A stretch of 64,000 nt of DNA from a virus (lineage: Duplodnaviria > Caudoviricetes). Each line of letters begins with the position of its first letter. Position 1 is the first letter of the stretch. The position numbers were made by a program, and so were the translations under genes. Under the pieces are notes generated by a model. It was not told where the DNA came from, did no database searches, and was given only the letters and a program-made list of their open reading frames with translations. Positions 1,318-5,962 of the stretch are shown piece by piece. The stretch is from IMG/VR virus record IMGVR_UViG_3300044645_001661, one strand, 5' to 3'.

Positions 1318-1404
1318 ATGACTGAAATTTTATTTACAATGACCTCAGTTGCCTTCTTCGTATTGTTGGCAGCATCTGTAGAAAAACTTTGTGAGACCTA
1401 TTAA
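1318..1404 (+). CDS. 28-aa single-TM peptide [28 protein letters not shown] (below the ORF-track cutoff)
   Basis: Read by hand; its TAA overlaps the petF ATG (TAATG); hydrophobic core. Confidence 0.65.
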
Positions 1405-1694
1405 TGACTTACACTATTACTCTTCAAAATCCAGATGGAACTGAAAATGTAATTCAATGTGCTGGTGATCAGTATATTTTAGAATCCGCTGAAGAAGCAG
1501 GACTTGATATGCTTTATTCTTGTCGTGCTGGTGCATGTAGTTCTTGTGCAGGCAAACTTATTAGTGGAACTGTCGATAATGAAGAACAATCATTTCTTGA
1601 TGATGATCAAATTGCACAAGGATATATCCTTACATGTGTCGCATATCCCACTAGTGACTGTGTAATCCTTACTGAACAGGAAGAAAACCTGTGA
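1404..1694 (+). CDS. petF: Plant-type [2Fe-2S] ferredoxin
   Basis: [11 protein letters not shown] and LTCVAYP motifs. Confidence 0.95.
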
Positions 1695-1891
1695 GTGCTG
1701 GAATGCTTGGGCAATTGGGAGTTGCCCTTCAAGAAATTGGATGGGACAGTGATATTGAATTAGAAGTCAAAATTGCTGGAACACTAAAGAATGACAAGTT
1801 TATTGTAATTAAACCTGTTAAAGAAAAAATGGTTTGTAACCGAAACCCAGAACTTAAACAACAACATTCTTATAAAGGAGAAACAAAATGA
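1691..1891 (+). CDS. Hypothetical protein, cyanophage type
   Basis: GTG start overlapping the petF stop; its stop overlaps the next ATG. Confidence 0.65.
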
Positions 1892-2007
1892 AATTTGGAT
1901 GGACCCCTGAGGCAGAAATCCTCAATGCTCGTCTTGCTATGCTTGGTTTTGTAATTGCTGTCGGCACTTACATGACTACTGGACAAATTATTCCTGGTGT
2001 ATTCTGA
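1888..2007 (+). CDS. hli: High-light-inducible protein, 39 aa (missed by ORF track)
   Basis: Translates as [39 protein letters not shown] (AExxNxRxAMxG and TGQIIPGxF); AAGGAG RBS upstream. Confidence 0.92.
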   Translation: MKFGWTPEAEILNARLAMLGFVIAVGTYMTTGQIIPGVF

Positions 2008-2546
2008 TGGAGGTTAATATGCGTAAAGAAGGATATCAAATTCCTGAAGTTGAATTTATTTGTCGTGAAAATGGTGAGTTTTTAGTCCGTAGTTCTGTAG
2101 ATTATTTTGCTGGAAAGCGTGTGGTCATTTTTAGCCTGCCTGGTGCTTTCACTCCTACTTGCAGTGCCTATCAGTTACCTGGATTCGAAGAGAAATACGA
2201 CGACTTTATTGGTAGTGGCATCGACGCTATTTACTGCATCTCTGTTAATGATGGGTTTGTGATGAATGCTTGGGCACAAGATCAAAACATCAAGAACGTA
2301 ACTCTTATCCCTGACGGCAATGCATATTTCACACGTTCTATGGGACAATTAGTGATGAAGTCTAACCTTGGTTTTGGTCAGCGTTCTTGGCGTTATGCTG
2401 CTGTGGTTGACAATGGTATTATTGAGAAACTGTTCGAAGAACCTGGCAAAACTGATAATGCATTAGAAGATCCTTACGGTGAAACTACTCCAGAAAAAGT
2501 TTTGGAATATGTAAAATCTACTGTCCGCGAAGTAGCAACAGTTTGA
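2007..2546 (+). CDS. Type II (Prx5-like) peroxiredoxin
   Basis: KRVVIFSLPGAFTPTCS active-site motif, CISVNDGFVMNAW, RSWRYA. Confidence 0.9.
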   Translation: MEVNMRKEGYQIPEVEFICRENGEFLVRSSVDYFAGKRVVIFSLPGAFTPTCSAYQLPGFEEKYDDFIGSGIDAIYCISVNDGFVMNAWAQDQNIKNVTLIPDGNAYFTRSMGQLVMKSNLGFGQRSWRYAAVVDNGIIEKLFEEPGKTDNALEDPYGETTPEKVLEYVKSTVREVATV

Positions 2547-2550
2547 ATAT

Positions 2551-2574
2551 AGGAGGGTTTATCCCTCCTTTTTT
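2551..2574 (+). terminator. Intrinsic terminator, followed by a late-promoter-like AATAAATA
   Basis: AGGAGGG-TTTAT-CCCTCCT then TTTTT. Confidence 0.75.
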
Positions 2575-2605
2575 AATAAATATAATGCAGAGTTTGGTTA
2601 AAATA

Positions 2606-3304
2606 ATGCTTATAGATCTTCATAACTTCTTTAAATTCTTTGATGAAAATAATCCAAAGCATGTTGCTGCAGTAGAGCAATTTGAAAAGGATTTGCTTTT
2701 GAAGGCACAAGAACTAATGCAAGATGAAGCAAATTGGGTGAGAATTTTTAGAACAAAAGAAAACAAACCTCAAGCAGATATTTTACCAGTTCCATTTTAT
2801 CCACAAACAGATAATTATAGAGATGCAGATAGAACTTGTAACTCTTCTGCTTGTGCAATGTGTCTCGAATATTTTAAACCAGGCACATTAAAAGGATCTA
2901 AGGGCGATGACGCCTATGTACAAAAAGTTTTTTCAATCGGTGACACAACTGATCACTTGGTTCAAACCAAAGTTCTTGCGTCATACGGCATTAAATCCAG
3001 TTTTTCCTACAGTCTTTCTTTTGCTGATCTTGATAGAGAGCTTGCCGCTGGTAGACCTGTTGTTATTGGCATTCTTCATCGTGGGACTCTATCTAATCCC
3101 ACAGGAGGACACATGGTAGTTGTGATTGGCAAAACTCCTGCTGGAGATTATGTAGTTAATGATCCTTATGGTTCATTGAATGATGGATATACTGAGGCAG
3201 TACAAAATGGTAAAGGTGCTGTTTATAAACGTAGTGAATTAACACGTAGATGGTGTCCAGCAGGAAATGATGGGTGGGGTAGAATTTTTGATGTAAAAAA
3301 GTAG
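2606..3304 (+). CDS. C39-like (papain-fold) peptidase, probable endolysin component; likely start 2606 rather than 2543
   Basis: QTDNY..RTCNSSAC (Cys), GGHMVVV (His), DPYG (Asp); the 2543 start would run through a terminator. Confidence 0.8.
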   Translation: MLIDLHNFFKFFDENNPKHVAAVEQFEKDLLLKAQELMQDEANWVRIFRTKENKPQADILPVPFYPQTDNYRDADRTCNSSACAMCLEYFKPGTLKGSKGDDAYVQKVFSIGDTTDHLVQTKVLASYGIKSSFSYSLSFADLDRELAAGRPVVIGILHRGTLSNPTGGHMVVVIGKTPAGDYVVNDPYGSLNDGYTEAVQNGKGAVYKRSELTRRWCPAGNDGWGRIFDVKK

Positions 3305-3344
3305 AGTCAACACCACAACAAAAAATCCCCCAATGTGGTGTTGA
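3295..3344 (+). promoter_or_regulatory. Putative programmed -1 ribosomal frameshift signal (slippery heptamer plus hairpin)
   Basis: A_AAA_AAG at 3295-3301 in register with the peptidase frame; 5-nt spacer; perfect 11-bp stem TCAACACCACA (3307-3317) / TGTGGTGTTGA (3334-3344). Confidence 0.8.
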
Positions 3345-3783
3345 TTTAATTAAAGAATTTGAGGGATGCCATTTAAATGCTTATCCCGACCCATTAACTG
3401 GAGGTCTACCAATAACTATTGGATGGGGAAGTACTAGAGATTTTAATGGGCAACCATTTAAACTTGGAAAAAAAGTCACTCAAGATTATGCTGATAAATT
3501 ACTTTTATTTGATCTTGAACAAAGATTTCTTCCTTCTTTACAAAAGATTCCTTATTGGAGTGAAATGACTGATAATCAACATGGAGCACTTTTCAGCTTT
3601 GCTTATAATCTCGGTGCTGGTTTTTACGGTGGAAGCGGATTTAATACTATCTCTCGCAACCTTCGTGAGAAGAATTGGTCAGCAATCCCAGAGACATTAA
3701 AGATGTATCGTAATCCTGGAAGTAATGTAGAATCGGGATTATTGAGAAGACGTACTGCTGAAGGAAAACTATGGATATCTTAA
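3298..3783 (+). CDS. Phage lysozyme (GH24-like) domain in the -1 frame, with no start codon upstream of its catalytic residues
   Basis: Frame opens after TGA at 3289-3291 and reads ..LIKEFEGCHLNAYPDPLTGGLPITIGWG..ALFSFAYNLG..GLLRRRTAEG; the first ATG/GTG/TTG is at 3565, downstream of the E-x8-D..T catalytic region. Confidence 0.85.
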   Translation, partial: KVESTPQQKIPQCGVDLIKEFEGCHLNAYPDPLTGGLPITIGWGSTRDFNGQPFKLGKKVTQDYADKLLLFDLEQRFLPSLQKIPYWSEMTDNQHGALFSFAYNLGAGFYGGSGFNTISRNLREKNWSAIPETLKMYRNPGSNVESGLLRRRTAEGKLWIS

Positions 3784-4037
3784 TCGTCTGACTTTGCTTT
3801 ATAAGCAATTAACAATCCAATAGCAACTAACAATTGTTTAATACCCTCATCCTGTGATTTATTACAATCTATGGGTGGGGGATTTTTTAATTCTCCTTTT
3901 ACGTTAGCATAATGCATTGTGCCAGGAATCATCAGATTGCAACTGGCAATACTAAAACCAATATACCCAAACAACACAACAAATGTTGAGTATATGAGTA
4001 CTGTCAGTGGTGAGATTTTTCTTGGTTGTGGATCCAT
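3780..4037 (-). CDS. Small membrane protein (two hydrophobic segments)
   Basis: ORF track; hydrophobic stretches at both ends; convergent on the lysozyme. Confidence 0.6.
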   Translation of the reverse strand: MDPQPRKISPLTVLIYSTFVVLFGYIGFSIASCNLMIPGTMHYANVKGELKNPPPIDCNKSQDEGIKQLLVAIGLLIAYKAKSDD

Positions 4038-4707: not shown

Positions 4708-5787
4708 ATGACTGCTTCAATCGCTTCACGTCAACAATCGAATACTTGGGAACAGTTCTGTAATTGGGTTACTTCAACCAATAATCGTCTTTATGTTGGT
4801 TGGTTTGGAGTCCTGATGATTCCTTGCCTACTTGCTGCTACGACTTGTTTTATCATCGCGTTCATCGGTGCTCCCCCTGTGGACATTGATGGTATCCGTG
4901 AACCCGTTGCTGGTTCACTCATGTACGGAAACAACATCATCTCTGGTGCTGTTATTCCTTCGTCCAATGCTATTGGACTACACTTTTACCCCATCTGGGA
5001 AGCTGCTTCCCTAGATGAGTGGCTTTACAACGGTGGTCCTTTCCAACTGGTTGTGTTCCACTTCCTGATTGGTATTTACGCCTACATGGGTCGTGAGTGG
5101 GAACTCTCCTATCGTCTGGGTATGCGTCCTTGGATCTGTGTTGCTTACTCGGCACCTGTTGCTGCTGCATCTGCTGTATTCCTGGTCTATCCCTTCGGTC
5201 AAGGTTCTTTCTCTGATGCGATGCCCCTGGGTATCTCTGGTACGTTCAACTATATGCTTGTGTTCCAGGCAGAGCATAACATTCTAATGCACCCCTTCCA
5301 TATGCTTGGTGTTGCTGGTGTGTTCGGTGGTTCTCTGTTCTCTGCGATGCACGGTTCTCTAGTTACTTCCTCTCTGGTTCGTGAAACCACTGAGAATGAG
5401 TCGCAGAACTATGGTTACAAGTTCGGACAAGAAGAAGAGACTTATAACATCGTTGCTGCTCACGGTTATTTTGGACGCCTTATTTTCCAATATGCTTCCT
5501 TCAATAACTCACGTTCGCTGCACTTCTTCCTTGCTGCATGGCCTGTAGTTGGTATCTGGTTCACTGCTCTTGGTGTTAGTACCATGGCATTCAACCTGAA
5601 TGGTTTCAACTTCAATCAGTCCATCGTTGATAGTCAAGGTCGTGTACTCAACACTTGGGCAGATGTTCTGAACCGTGCTGGTCTGGGTATGGAAGTGATG
5701 CATGAACGTAATGCTCACAATTTCCCTCTGGATCTTGCTGCTGCTGAGAACACTCCTGTTGCTCTCACTGCTCCTAGCATCGGTTGA
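4708..5787 (+). CDS. psbA: Photosystem II D1 protein, no intron, Glu130 (high-light-type) form
   Basis: Full canonical D1 sequence ([24 protein letters not shown]). Confidence 0.99.
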
Positions 5788-5839: not shown

Positions 5840-5962
5840 ATGTCTCATAATACTCAACACGAACCTGTGCCTAACTGGGTAATCTGGGCAGGTGTAGGTA
5901 TGATGGTATTCACAGTCCTTGTGTTTTTTTTATTTACTCTAGGTCAGATTTATTGGGGATAG
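5840..5962 (+). CDS. 40-aa single-TM peptide (missed by ORF track)
   Basis: MSHNTQHEPVPNWVIWAGVGMMVFTVLVFFLFTLGQIYWG, read by hand. Confidence 0.6.
   Translation: MSHNTQHEPVPNWVIWAGVGMMVFTVLVFFLFTLGQIYWG

What the first reader, a model, noticed from the sequence alone, without database searches (positions are those of the whole stretch)
2606..3783. Frameshift-switched endolysin: C39 peptidase fused to lysozyme by a -1 ribosomal frameshift
Seen in sequence: the peptidase ORF ends GTA AAA AAG TAG, which places an in-register A_AAA_AAG heptamer (3295-3301) directly before its stop. Five nt later is a perfect 11-bp stem (3307-3317/3334-3344, 16-nt loop). The -1 frame has a TGA at 3289-3291, then stays open to 3783 and encodes a complete lysozyme (LIKEFEG..YPD..TIGWG). 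It has no ATG, GTG or TTG before 3565, which is downstream of the catalytic Glu (3361) and Asp. Established: A_AAA_AAG plus a 3' structure 5-9 nt downstream is the most efficient bacterial -1 signal (dnaX, IS3 family). Inference: one gene makes both a 232-aa peptidase and a ~392-aa peptidase-muramidase fusion at a set ratio, so recoding tunes the lysis or cell-wall activity. Gene callers would see only a 72-aa truncated lysozyme. The loop ATCCC (3325-3329) could also pair with GGGAT (3363-3367) to form a pseudoknot.
Basis: partly seen in the sequence, partly recalled or inferred. Interest (0 to 1): 0.9.

Follow-up and report, generated by a model that had tools for sequence, protein, structure and literature searches.

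The report
Frameshift-made peptidase-lysozyme lysin in cyanophage
In this freshwater T4-like cyanophage, and in dozens of relatives including the model phage S-PM2, ribosomes very probably slip back one base at the end of a peptidase gene, so one locus makes both a peptidase and a peptidase-lysozyme fusion; this would explain why the lysozyme gene of these phages has no start codon.

Summary
The peptidase ORF (2606-3304) ends GTA AAA AAG TAG, with A_AAA_AAG in register at 3295-3301. A perfect 11-bp stem starts 5 nt later. A complete GH24 lysozyme lies in the -1 frame with no ATG/GTG/TTG before 3565.

The layout is not an assembly error. Contigs from four independent lake metagenome runs carry A6 without gaps.

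It is conserved. 55 loci, counting the window, S-PM2 and IMG/VR contigs, share the heptamer and the -1 offset. 82% of 49 unique junctions have a stem of at least 8 Watson-Crick pairs starting 2-9 nt after the heptamer, against 1.35% of background positions. The stem sequences differ widely, with compensatory changes. The codon before AAA AAG codes four different amino acids but always ends in A. The lysozyme frame is under purifying selection (dN/dS 0.10-0.27).

S-CAM7 uses a different heptamer (T_TTT_TTT) with the same architecture. Relatives also include in-frame fusions, start-overlap genes and separate genes.

Best reading: a dnaX/IS3-type programmed -1 ribosomal frameshift (confidence about 0.85), giving 232-aa and 392-aa products. 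No protein evidence exists. I found no paper or annotation that records it. This scan's own follow-ups reached the same reading on other genomes. It is a new member of a known kind.

The parts
2551..2569 (+). Intrinsic-terminator-like hairpin plus T-run ending the upstream peroxiredoxin-like gene. It separates the lysin locus from upstream transcription.
   Evidence: 7-bp stem, 5 GC pairs, T-run; sequence
2575..2582 (+). AATAAATA, matching the T4-type late-promoter motif NATAAATA, 24 nt before the ATG at 2606 (inferred late promoter).
   Evidence: The motif itself is recalled from knowledge of T4-like cyanophages and was not tested.
2606..3304 (+). 0-frame ORF of 232 aa plus TAG: the short product (N-terminal module plus papain-like peptidase).
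   Evidence: Homologues start at the same Met.
2606..2770 (+). N-terminal module of about 55 aa (helical). In other cyanophages the same module heads a GH24 lysozyme and GH19-like endolysins. It is a candidate wall-binding or targeting module.
   Evidence: 47% identity, E 3e-14, to the N-terminus of the DSL-LC03 lysozyme; model
2783..3169 (+). Peptidase_C39_2 domain (aa 60-188). Cys78, His169 and Asp186 are invariant.
   Evidence: 85/85 rows; papain-like fold; matches to Alr0975, 3erv and PCAT C39 domains
3289..3291 (+). TGA that closes the -1 (lysozyme) frame just upstream of the slip site.
3295..3301 (+). Slippery heptamer A_AAA_AAG in 0-frame register.
   Evidence: Conserved in 55 loci. The wobble A of the preceding codon is kept in 47/47 unique junctions.
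3302..3304 (+). 0-frame TAG directly after the heptamer. It ends the short product and may add a pause.
   Evidence: A stop follows the heptamer at once in 42 of 47 unique junctions.
3304..3347 (+). Stimulatory stem-loop: 14 bp (core 3307-3317/3334-3344) with a 16-nt loop.
   Evidence: 98.6% of cells paired and 4 pairs with double-sided change, against 35-47% in slid controls..
3325..3367 (+). Candidate pseudoknot helix 2: loop 3325-3333 pairs with 3359-3367 (the F-E-G codons). In the window it has one C.A mismatch.
   Evidence: 97.8% paired, no double-sided change; duplex energy -9 to -16 kcal/mol in the window's clade only
3301..3783 (+). -1 frame continuation: linker plus GH24 lysozyme (160 aa plus TAA), read only after the slip. 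The fusion is 392 aa.
   Evidence: purifying selection
3352..3762 (+). Phage_lysozyme (GH24) domain. The catalytic Glu codon is at 3361-3363.
   Evidence: 1-125/125; PDB lysozymes/endolysins, E down to 3e-15
3565..3783 (+). The 72-aa ORF that gene callers report. It lacks the catalytic Glu and the Asp/Thr motifs. The equivalent ORF is annotated 'putative lysin' in S-PM2.

Best explanation
The locus is one late-expressed cyanophage lysin gene decoded in two ways.

Most ribosomes read the 0 frame and stop at TAG 3302-3304. This gives a 232-aa protein: an N-terminal module plus a papain-fold Cys-His-Asp peptidase.

A fraction of ribosomes pause on the 11-14-bp stem-loop that starts 2-5 nt after the heptamer. 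With tRNA-Lys on AAA (P site) and AAG (A site), they slip back one base on A_AAA_AAG. An alternative is a slip of the P-site tRNA alone, with the stop codon in the A site. They then continue at GTA 3301 into the start-less -1 frame. This gives a 392-aa fusion that adds a linker and a complete GH24 lysozyme.

Shown:
- the signals and their conservation;
- covariation of the stem;
- selection on the heptamer nucleotides;
- purifying selection on the lysozyme frame;
- A6 in DNA, and in S-PM2 RNA contigs.

Inferred:
- that the slip happens, and its efficiency;
- that both proteins act on the host wall at lysis;
- that the fusion matters because the lysozyme needs the N-terminal module.
For: (1) Canonical signal at the stated coordinates.

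(2) The lysozyme frame has no ATG/GTG/TTG before 3565, which is past the catalytic Glu. Yet it is a full-length GH24 domain with dN/dS of 0.10-0.27 against relatives.

(3) S-PM2, 73% identical in DNA, has GCA AAA AAG TAA, a 5-nt spacer and an 11-bp stem of unrelated sequence. Its annotation also shows only a 72-aa lysin.

(4) 55 loci share the A_AAA_AAG heptamer and the -1 offset. All 49 unique frameshift-type junctions have an uninterrupted stem with at least 6 Watson-Crick pairs starting 2-9 nt after the heptamer, and 82% have at least 8. The same test gives 1.35% at 5,914 background positions in the same genes. There are at least 8 unrelated stem sequences. Within the window's clade, 4 pairs show double-sided compensatory change.

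(5) The codon before AAA AAG is GCA, GTA, ACA or GAA: four amino acids, always A-ending (47/47, background 29%). Lys-Lys is always AAA AAG at the junction but only 7 of 33 times elsewhere in the same ORFs.

(6) Relatives with a peptidase but no downstream lysozyme lack the heptamer. In-frame fusions lack the hairpin signal (median z +0.68, against about -2.4).

(7) S-CAM7 and two contigs use T_TTT_TTT, a 5-nt spacer and an 8-bp stem with the lysozyme again in -1. They are nested among in-frame fusions, which points to an independent origin.

(8) The natural A7 variants L248 and L261 encode in frame exactly the predicted junction K-K-V-E.

(9) A6 is confirmed in contigs of 4 independent DNA runs. 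S-PM2 RNA-library contigs cross the junction unedited.

(10) A complete marine Synechococcus genome has a single tRNA-Lys (UUU) and no CUU. From my own knowledge, this is the condition that makes A_AAA_AAG especially shifty in E. coli.

(11) Where the lysozyme is a separate gene (DSL-LC03), it carries its own copy of the N-terminal module. This fits a need for fusion in the window.
Against: - There is no protein, ribosome-profiling or reporter evidence, and the efficiency is unknown.
- The read evidence is from contigs, which drop rare variants, so low-level transcriptional slippage is not excluded.
- A subclade (S-SRM01, L046, L052, L070, L074 and others) keeps the heptamer but has an ATG or GTG overlapping the stop. 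A free-standing lysozyme is therefore viable there, and fusion may not be obligatory.
- A few frameshift-type junctions have an in-frame ATG or GTG near the slip site (L013, L104, L060/L064).
- The K-K tail and part of the 3' arm (the G-V-D/E-L codons) are also constrained by protein sequence.
- The host of this phage is unknown, and its tRNA-Lys set was not checked.
Confidence: 0.85

Rival explanations
1. Transcriptional slippage. RNA polymerase stutters on the A6 run (T8 in S-CAM7) and adds one A to a fraction of transcripts. Those mRNAs then encode the fusion in frame without any ribosomal slip.
For: Homopolymer runs sit exactly at the junction. An A7 genomic variant gives the same fusion. 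RNA evidence is from contigs only, which cannot show minority species.
Against: Six A's is short for efficient slippage; from my own knowledge, known bacterial cases use runs of about 8-9 or more. This model does not explain three findings: the strict in-register X_XXY_YYZ, the G at heptamer position 7 (47/47), and the covarying stem 2-9 nt downstream. The dominant S-PM2 transcript is A6.
Confidence: 0.05
2. These are two separate proteins. Ribosomes terminate at the peptidase stop and re-initiate, or initiate independently, at a non-canonical or nearby start. The lysozyme is then made free-standing, and the hairpin regulates that initiation.
For: A related subclade has ATGA/GTGA stop-start overlaps. 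DSL-LC02 and DSL-LC03 have separate genes. A few junctions carry an in-frame ATG or GTG next to the slip site.
Against: In the window and in most relatives, the -1 frame has no ATG/GTG/TTG between its upstream stop and the catalytic Glu. No near-cognate codon is conserved. The model does not explain selection on the heptamer nucleotides. The separately encoded DSL-LC03 lysozyme carries its own N-terminal module, which a re-initiated product in the window would lack.
Confidence: 0.06
3. The arrangement is an artefact or decay: either a sequencing or assembly indel in the A-run, or a lysozyme pseudogene that is no longer translated.
For: Homopolymers are error-prone. Two contigs (L248, L261) have A7.
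Against: A6 appears in contigs of four independent runs. It also appears in S-PM2 records deposited separately and in its RNA contigs, and in about 55 independent loci. The lysozyme frame stays open over about 160 codons in 81 loci, with dN/dS of 0.10-0.27.
Confidence: 0.02

Closest known systems
E. coli dnaX (tau/gamma) -1 programmed frameshift cassette
   Same: It has the same heptamer A_AAA_AAG and a stem-loop a few nt downstream. One gene gives a short and a long product that share an N-terminal part. A single tRNA-Lys(UUU) decodes AAG in the one Synechococcus genome checked.
   Different: In dnaX the frameshift makes the SHORT product, because the -1 frame stops at once. Here it makes the LONG product. 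The in-frame relative ACG-2014f has the dnaX logic instead. The upstream SD-like stimulator of dnaX cannot be tested here: the GGGG 15 nt upstream is forced by the Trp-Gly codons. The gene is a phage wall hydrolase, not a replication protein.
IS3-family (IS911, IS150) orfA-orfB transframe fusion
   Same: A_AAA_AAG lies near the end of the upstream ORF. The downstream ORF is in the -1 frame without its own efficient start. A 3' stem-loop or pseudoknot is present. The frameshift fuses two functional domains into the long protein, while the short one is also made.
   Different: This is not a transposase. The 0-frame stop directly abuts the heptamer in 42 of 47 junctions. The fused domains are two independent catalytic domains.
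Phage tail assembly chaperone G/GT -1 frameshift (lambda and most long-tailed phages)
   Same: It is a conserved phage -1 frameshift giving a short and a C-terminally extended protein in a presumably fixed ratio. The position is conserved while the sequence drifts.
   Different: The gene class differs (lysis enzyme versus tail chaperone). The lambda site is G_GGA_AAG without a strong stem. Here a covarying stem is the rule.
Multi-domain and multi-isoform endolysins made by internal translation starts (recalled examples: Ms6 LysA, CD27L, Lys170)
   Same: One endolysin locus yields two protein species that share a domain.
   Different: Those use in-frame internal initiation to make a shorter C-terminal form. 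Here recoding extends an N-terminal form. In the papers held here I found no endolysin made by -1 frameshifting.

Membership tests
Bacterial -1 programmed ribosomal frameshift cassette (dnaX / IS3 type) | X_XXY_YYZ slippery heptamer in register with the upstream (0) frame | tested here: met
   A_AAA_AAG at 3295-3301 in register. Kept in 55 loci. The wobble A of the preceding codon is kept in 47/47 across four amino acids.
Bacterial -1 programmed ribosomal frameshift cassette (dnaX / IS3 type) | The downstream coding sequence lies in the -1 frame, overlaps the site, and cannot be expressed on its own | tested here: met
   The -1 frame is open from 3292. The first ATG/GTG/TTG is at 3565, past the catalytic Glu. 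The offset is -1 in every frameshift-type locus.
Bacterial -1 programmed ribosomal frameshift cassette (dnaX / IS3 type) | A 3' stimulatory RNA structure a few nt downstream, supported by covariation | tested here: met
   11-14-bp stem. 82% against 1.35% background for stems of at least 8 Watson-Crick pairs. 4 pairs with double-sided change in the window's clade, 98.6% paired against 35-47% in slid controls. At least 8 unrelated stem sequences across clades.
Bacterial -1 programmed ribosomal frameshift cassette (dnaX / IS3 type) | H-type pseudoknot (a feature of some cassettes, not all) | tested here: inconclusive
   Loop 3325-3333 pairs with 3359-3367: 97.8% paired in 20 sequences, but no double-sided change, and the 3' arm is the conserved F-E-G codons. 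It is absent in other clades.
Bacterial -1 programmed ribosomal frameshift cassette (dnaX / IS3 type) | Upstream Shine-Dalgarno-like stimulator (dnaX-specific) | tested here: inconclusive
   GGGG at 3276-3279 lies 15 nt upstream of the heptamer. It is fixed by the invariant Trp-Gly codons in all relatives, whether frameshift-type or not, so comparison cannot separate the two explanations.
Bacterial -1 programmed ribosomal frameshift cassette (dnaX / IS3 type) | The transframe protein is actually produced | not testable with these tools
   No proteomic or ribosome-profiling data were available. RNA contigs show only an unedited transcript across the junction in S-PM2.
Pfam Peptidase_C39_2 (PF13529), papain-fold cysteine peptidases | Profile match above the gathering score, and a Cys/His catalytic pair | tested here: met
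   50.9 bits against a cut-off of 24, covering 1-143/143. Cys78, His169 and Asp186 are invariant in 85/85. The model has a papain-like fold. Substrate and activity were not tested.
GH24 phage lysozyme (Pfam PF00959) | Full-length domain with the catalytic Glu in the E-G motif and the downstream Asp/Thr region | tested here: met
   80.5 bits, covering 1-125/125. It aligns with solved GH24 lysozymes from the LIKEFEG motif onward. The motifs EFEG, YPD and TIGWG are present. Enzyme activity was not tested.
Phage endolysin (lysis-cassette enzyme) | Acts from within at the end of infection, usually with a holin. Late expression. | not tested
   Only indirect evidence: matches to PHROG lysis families; a late-promoter-like motif at 2575-2582; and an N-terminal module shared with other wall hydrolases. 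A virion-associated role is not excluded.

The most novel reading that the evidence does not exclude
The locus may be an evolvable stoichiometry device rather than only a way to join two ORFs. Related phages reach the same two-product output by interchangeable architectures:
- a -1 frameshift makes the long form (the window, S-PM2, S-CAM7 with another heptamer);
- an in-frame fusion in which the retained heptamer, hairpin and immediate -1 stop would make the short form (ACG-2014f, dnaX logic);
- stop-start overlap coupling;
- separate genes, each with its own N-terminal module.

In the window's clade, the stem loop also pairs with the codons of the lysozyme catalytic motif. The slip rate could therefore be set, and possibly modulated, by host translation state (tRNA-Lys modification, elongation rate in light or under nutrient stress). 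That would couple lysis enzyme composition or timing to host physiology.
Probability: 0.15. Interest if true: 0.8.

Novelty: new member of a known kind. Interest (0 to 1): 0.6.

Why it matters
It would add a large, well-conserved gene family to the short list of programmed -1 frameshifts in tailed phages. As far as I could find, it would be the first case in which recoding builds a two-catalytic-domain lysin.

It corrects annotation. S-PM2 and S-CAM7 list only 72-90-aa lysin fragments. A T4 review lists S-PM2 as having no apparent gene e (PMC3014915). Gene callers miss the lysozyme in dozens of metagenomic cyanophages.

It offers a natural series of covarying stems, two different heptamers, and fixed (A7), coupled and split variants. 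That series suits a study of how frameshift efficiency evolves.

S-PM2 on Synechococcus WH7803 is a tractable system in which to test whether the short-to-long ratio affects lysis of an ecologically important host.

Tried and rejected
None mentions a frameshift in a cyanophage lysin or any endolysin. The S-PM2 genome paper is not held.
- Rfam: no family matches the junction.
- Sequence search of the peptidase against the PDB found nothing. Fold search was needed instead.
- The whole genome of the window is not held, so I could not check for a second lysozyme or phage tRNAs outside the window. The window itself has no tRNA.
- Pfam did not name the GH19-like domain of L111 or the N-terminal module.
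- My first automatic class 'heptamer + start' was too naive. It counted Leu or Val codons (TTG/GTG) inside the linker or stem as starts. I re-classified by stop-start overlap.
- A cross-clade fixed-register alignment of the stem was abandoned, because linker length varies. I used per-sequence stem detection with a background control instead, plus a gap-free alignment within the window's clade.
- The SD-like GGGG upstream was considered as a stimulator, but it is forced by the Trp-Gly codons.
- Sequencing error and pseudogene readings were rejected.
Full report
**1. The observation**

The sequence shows the peptidase frame ending GTA AAA AAG TAG at 3293-3304. A_AAA_AAG therefore sits at 3295-3301 in X_XXY_YYZ register, followed at once by the stop.

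After a 5-nt spacer, 3307-3317 is the perfect reverse complement of 3334-3344, with a 16-nt loop. RNAfold extends the helix to 14 bp (3304-3317/3334-3347). The energy is -20.2 kcal/mol, the z-score is -3.6, and 1 of 200 dinucleotide shuffles folds as well.

The -1 frame has TGA at 3289-3291 and then runs open to 3783. Its first ATG/GTG/TTG is the ATG at 3565, which defines the only ORF a gene caller lists there (72 aa).

Pfam assigns the 0-frame product to Peptidase_C39_2 (E 3.3e-13, full profile). It assigns the -1 frame to Phage_lysozyme (E 1.7e-22, full profile). The catalytic Glu codon is at 3361-3363, upstream of any start. PHROG 3617, a 405-position profile, covers both halves, so the fused architecture is the family norm.

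**2. Not an artefact**

The stretch is held by about 19 lake-water metagenome runs. Contigs of four runs from different studies cover the A-run with no gap and no difference.

S-PM2, an isolated model phage with separately deposited records, has the same layout. Contigs from four S-PM2 RNA libraries cross its junction without an indel. Contigs cannot exclude rare variants.

The start-less lysozyme frame stays open in 81 loci. It evolves under purifying selection, with dN/dS of 0.10-0.27 against relatives whose synonymous sites are near saturation. It must therefore be translated.

**3. Comparative evidence for a recoding signal**

An IMG/VR scan with the peptidase found 410 relatives, of which the best 80 were kept. 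Two more scans added marine clades. Across the first two scans, the annotated isolates and the window, the loci fall into these classes:

| Class | Loci |
|---|---|
| A_AAA_AAG with the lysozyme in -1 | 55 |
| T_TTT_TTT with the lysozyme in -1 (S-CAM7 group) | 3 |
| Heptamer kept, ATG/GTG overlapping the stop (2 of these, L060/L064, are ambiguous: AAG TGA read as GTG) | 11 |
| Overlap start, heptamer lost | 2 |
| In-frame fusion | 9 |
| Separate genes | 2 |
| Reversed domain order, in frame (S-CREM1) | 1 |
| Peptidase only | 21 |

Four results argue for selection on the RNA signal rather than on the protein.

(a) The stem is present and moves with the heptamer. All 49 unique frameshift-type junctions have an uninterrupted stem with at least 6 Watson-Crick pairs starting 2-9 nt after the heptamer, and 82% have at least 8. 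The same test gives 1.35% at 5,914 background positions in the same genes.

(b) The stems are unrelated in sequence between clades. Examples are TCAACACCACA/TGTGGTGTTGA in the window, AATGCCAACTAAC/GTTAGTTGGCATT, AACTCTACTCC/GGAGTAGAGTT, CCCCACTAT/ATAGTGGGG and AGCTCCA/TGGAGCT. The 5' arm lies in a linker whose amino-acid sequence is not conserved. Within the window's clade (20 sequences, gap-free alignment A1), helix 1 is 98.6% paired and 4 pairs have changes on both sides. Slid controls reach only 35-47%.

(c) The heptamer nucleotides are under selection. The codon before AAA AAG is GCA, GTA, ACA or GAA, which code four different amino acids. It ends in A in 47 of 47 unique junctions, against 29% A at such positions elsewhere. 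Lys-Lys is always AAA AAG at the junction, against 7 of 33 elsewhere.

(d) The signal tracks the need for it. Relatives with a peptidase but no downstream lysozyme end ...GRVFQP*...GRIFN* and the like, without the heptamer. In-frame fusions of the marine clade show no excess structure at the equivalent place (median z +0.68, against about -2.4).

**4. Independent second solution, and natural controls**

S-CAM7 and two contigs have AGA GTT TTT TTT CCA CAG TAG. This gives T_TTT_TTT in register, a 5-nt spacer, an 8-bp stem (GTAGAACC/GGTTCTAC, with a G.U variant in L090), and the lysozyme in -1. The annotation again shows only a 90-aa lysin fragment. On the peptidase tree this group is nested among in-frame fusions. 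The A_AAA_AAG state, in contrast, occupies the earliest branches and most of the other large clade (quick tree, many open forks). That pattern suggests two origins and several losses. Recombination could blur it.

Two contigs (L248, L261) carry seven A's. They encode in frame exactly the predicted transframe junction K-K-V-E, and the stem is still present. So the fusion protein is viable.

ACG-2014f is an in-frame fusion that keeps A_AAA_AAG and a hairpin, and its -1 frame stops after one codon. This is dnaX logic and would yield the same two products. It is a single lineage and I did not follow it further.

**5. Mechanism**

The best reading is a dnaX/IS3-type -1 ribosomal frameshift. The stem-loop pauses the ribosome with tRNA-Lys on AAA and AAG. 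Both re-pair on AAA AAA, and decoding resumes at GTA 3301.

The abutting 0-frame stop is immediate in 42 of 47 junctions. It may add a P-site slip route while the A site waits for a release factor. This is inference from established 'shifty stop' behaviour.

A complete marine Synechococcus genome (MIT S9451) has 43 tRNA genes. It has one tRNA-Lys(UUU) and none with CUU. From my own knowledge, this is the condition that makes A_AAA_AAG so efficient in E. coli. The host of this freshwater phage was not checked.

Loop 3325-3333 pairs with 3359-3367, 97.8% paired across the clade, with duplex energies of -9 to -16 kcal/mol. However, it has no double-sided covariation. Its 3' arm is the invariant F-E-G codons and its 5' arm covers a conserved Ile/Leu-Pro. 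It is absent from other clades. I put it at roughly 35-40%.

**6. The proteins**

The 0-frame product folds (pLDDT 77.8) as a helical N-terminal module followed by a papain-like alpha/beta domain. The nearest solved folds are Nostoc Alr0975, the Bacillus anthracis C39-like peptidase 3erv, PCAT C39 domains and staphopain. Cys78, His169 and Asp186 are invariant in 85 sequences. The substrate is untested.

The ~55-aa N-terminal module also heads the separately encoded GH24 lysozyme of DSL-LC03 (47% identity, E 3e-14). It also heads GH19-like endolysins in marine contigs. It therefore behaves as a shared module of cyanophage wall hydrolases. This gives a rationale for fusion: in the window, the lysozyme can acquire that module only through the frameshift.

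An intrinsic terminator (2551-2569) lies ahead of the ATG, as does an AATAAATA motif (2575-2582). No terminator lies between the two ORFs. This fits one late transcript, but that is inference.

**7. Rivals**

- Transcriptional slippage (about 0.05) does not explain the register, the terminal G or the stem.
- Termination-reinitiation or a non-canonical start (about 0.06) is supported only by the ATGA/GTGA subclade. It lacks any conserved start in the window's clade.
- Artefact or pseudogene (about 0.02) is contradicted.

**8. Novelty**

The mechanism is textbook. Its use to join two catalytic domains of a phage lysin was not found in seven literature searches, nor in the eight annotated records I inspected. 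None of those records carries a joined CDS.

This scan's own earlier follow-ups on other genomes reached the same conclusion (e1-5343480, e1-5343471). My analysis was done independently of them and agrees.

Verdict: a real, conserved, unannotated -1 frameshift cassette. It is a new member of a known kind, with interest about 0.6. Protein-level proof is still missing.

Noticed in passing
L004 2026-2060 (ACG-2014f); L226-L228: This in-frame peptidase-lysozyme fusion still carries GCA AAA AAG in register and a 5-6-bp hairpin 8-9 nt downstream. Its -1 frame stops after one codon (K-K-V-stop). A slip there would make the SHORT peptidase-only form, which is the dnaX logic and the mirror image of the window. 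Only one closely related lineage was seen.
   Followed up: partly
L248 and L261 (IMG/VR), at the junction after the W-G-R codons: The A-run is A7 instead of A6. This gives an in-frame fusion with the same K-K-V-E junction, and the downstream stem is intact. These could be real fixed-fusion variants or homopolymer assembly errors. Reads were not checked.
   Followed up: no
L087 1307-1352 (S-CAM7), L089, L090: A second frameshift design in the same gene family: T_TTT_TTT, a 5-nt spacer, and an 8-bp stem GTAGAACC/GGTTCTAC. The stop is two codons after the heptamer.
   Followed up: yes
window 2606-2770; L086 1567-1720; L108 1156-1330; L111 1177-1340: An N-terminal module of about 55 aa (motif ...NFFK(F/Y)(F/Y)(D/N)...(W)...(Y/F)R) with no Pfam family. 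It precedes three different wall-hydrolase catalytic domains in cyanophages: C39-like, GH24 and GH19-like. It is a candidate new cell-wall-binding or regulatory domain.
   Followed up: partly
L034-L047, L065, L066, L076, L080, L081, L088 (downstream of peptidase-only genes): Phages whose peptidase gene lacks both the lysozyme and the heptamer often have an RlpA-like ORF (double-psi beta-barrel, motif ...GCSLASHYGVGDGYHGQTTANGE...) a few hundred bases downstream. This ORF is annotated 'rare lipoprotein A' in S-SZBM1. It may replace the glycan-cleaving activity.
   Followed up: no
L003 1489-2670 (S-CREM1): The same two domains occur in reversed order (lysozyme N-terminal, peptidase C-terminal) in one frame. 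This matches PHROG 10051.
   Followed up: no
window 3780-4037 (- strand): An 85-aa ORF convergent with the lysin gene, overlapping its stop by 4 nt. It has one clear N-terminal hydrophobic segment and a second, weaker one near the C-terminus. Small minus-strand ORFs sit at the same place in S-SRM01 and S-PM2. It could be a membrane or holin-like partner; this was not tested.
   Followed up: no
window 1404-2546 and 4708-5787: The neighbouring genes are ferredoxin-like (1404-1694), peroxiredoxin-like (2007-2546) and psbA (4708-5787). This is a typical auxiliary-gene neighbourhood of T4-like cyanophages. The same peroxiredoxin-lysin adjacency is seen in DSL-LC02 and DSL-LC03.
   Followed up: no
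L137 (genome contigs): A contig labelled as a Gammaproteobacteria MAG carries a psbA 94% identical to the window's. This is probably a cyanophage or cyanobacterial contig that was mis-binned.
   Followed up: no
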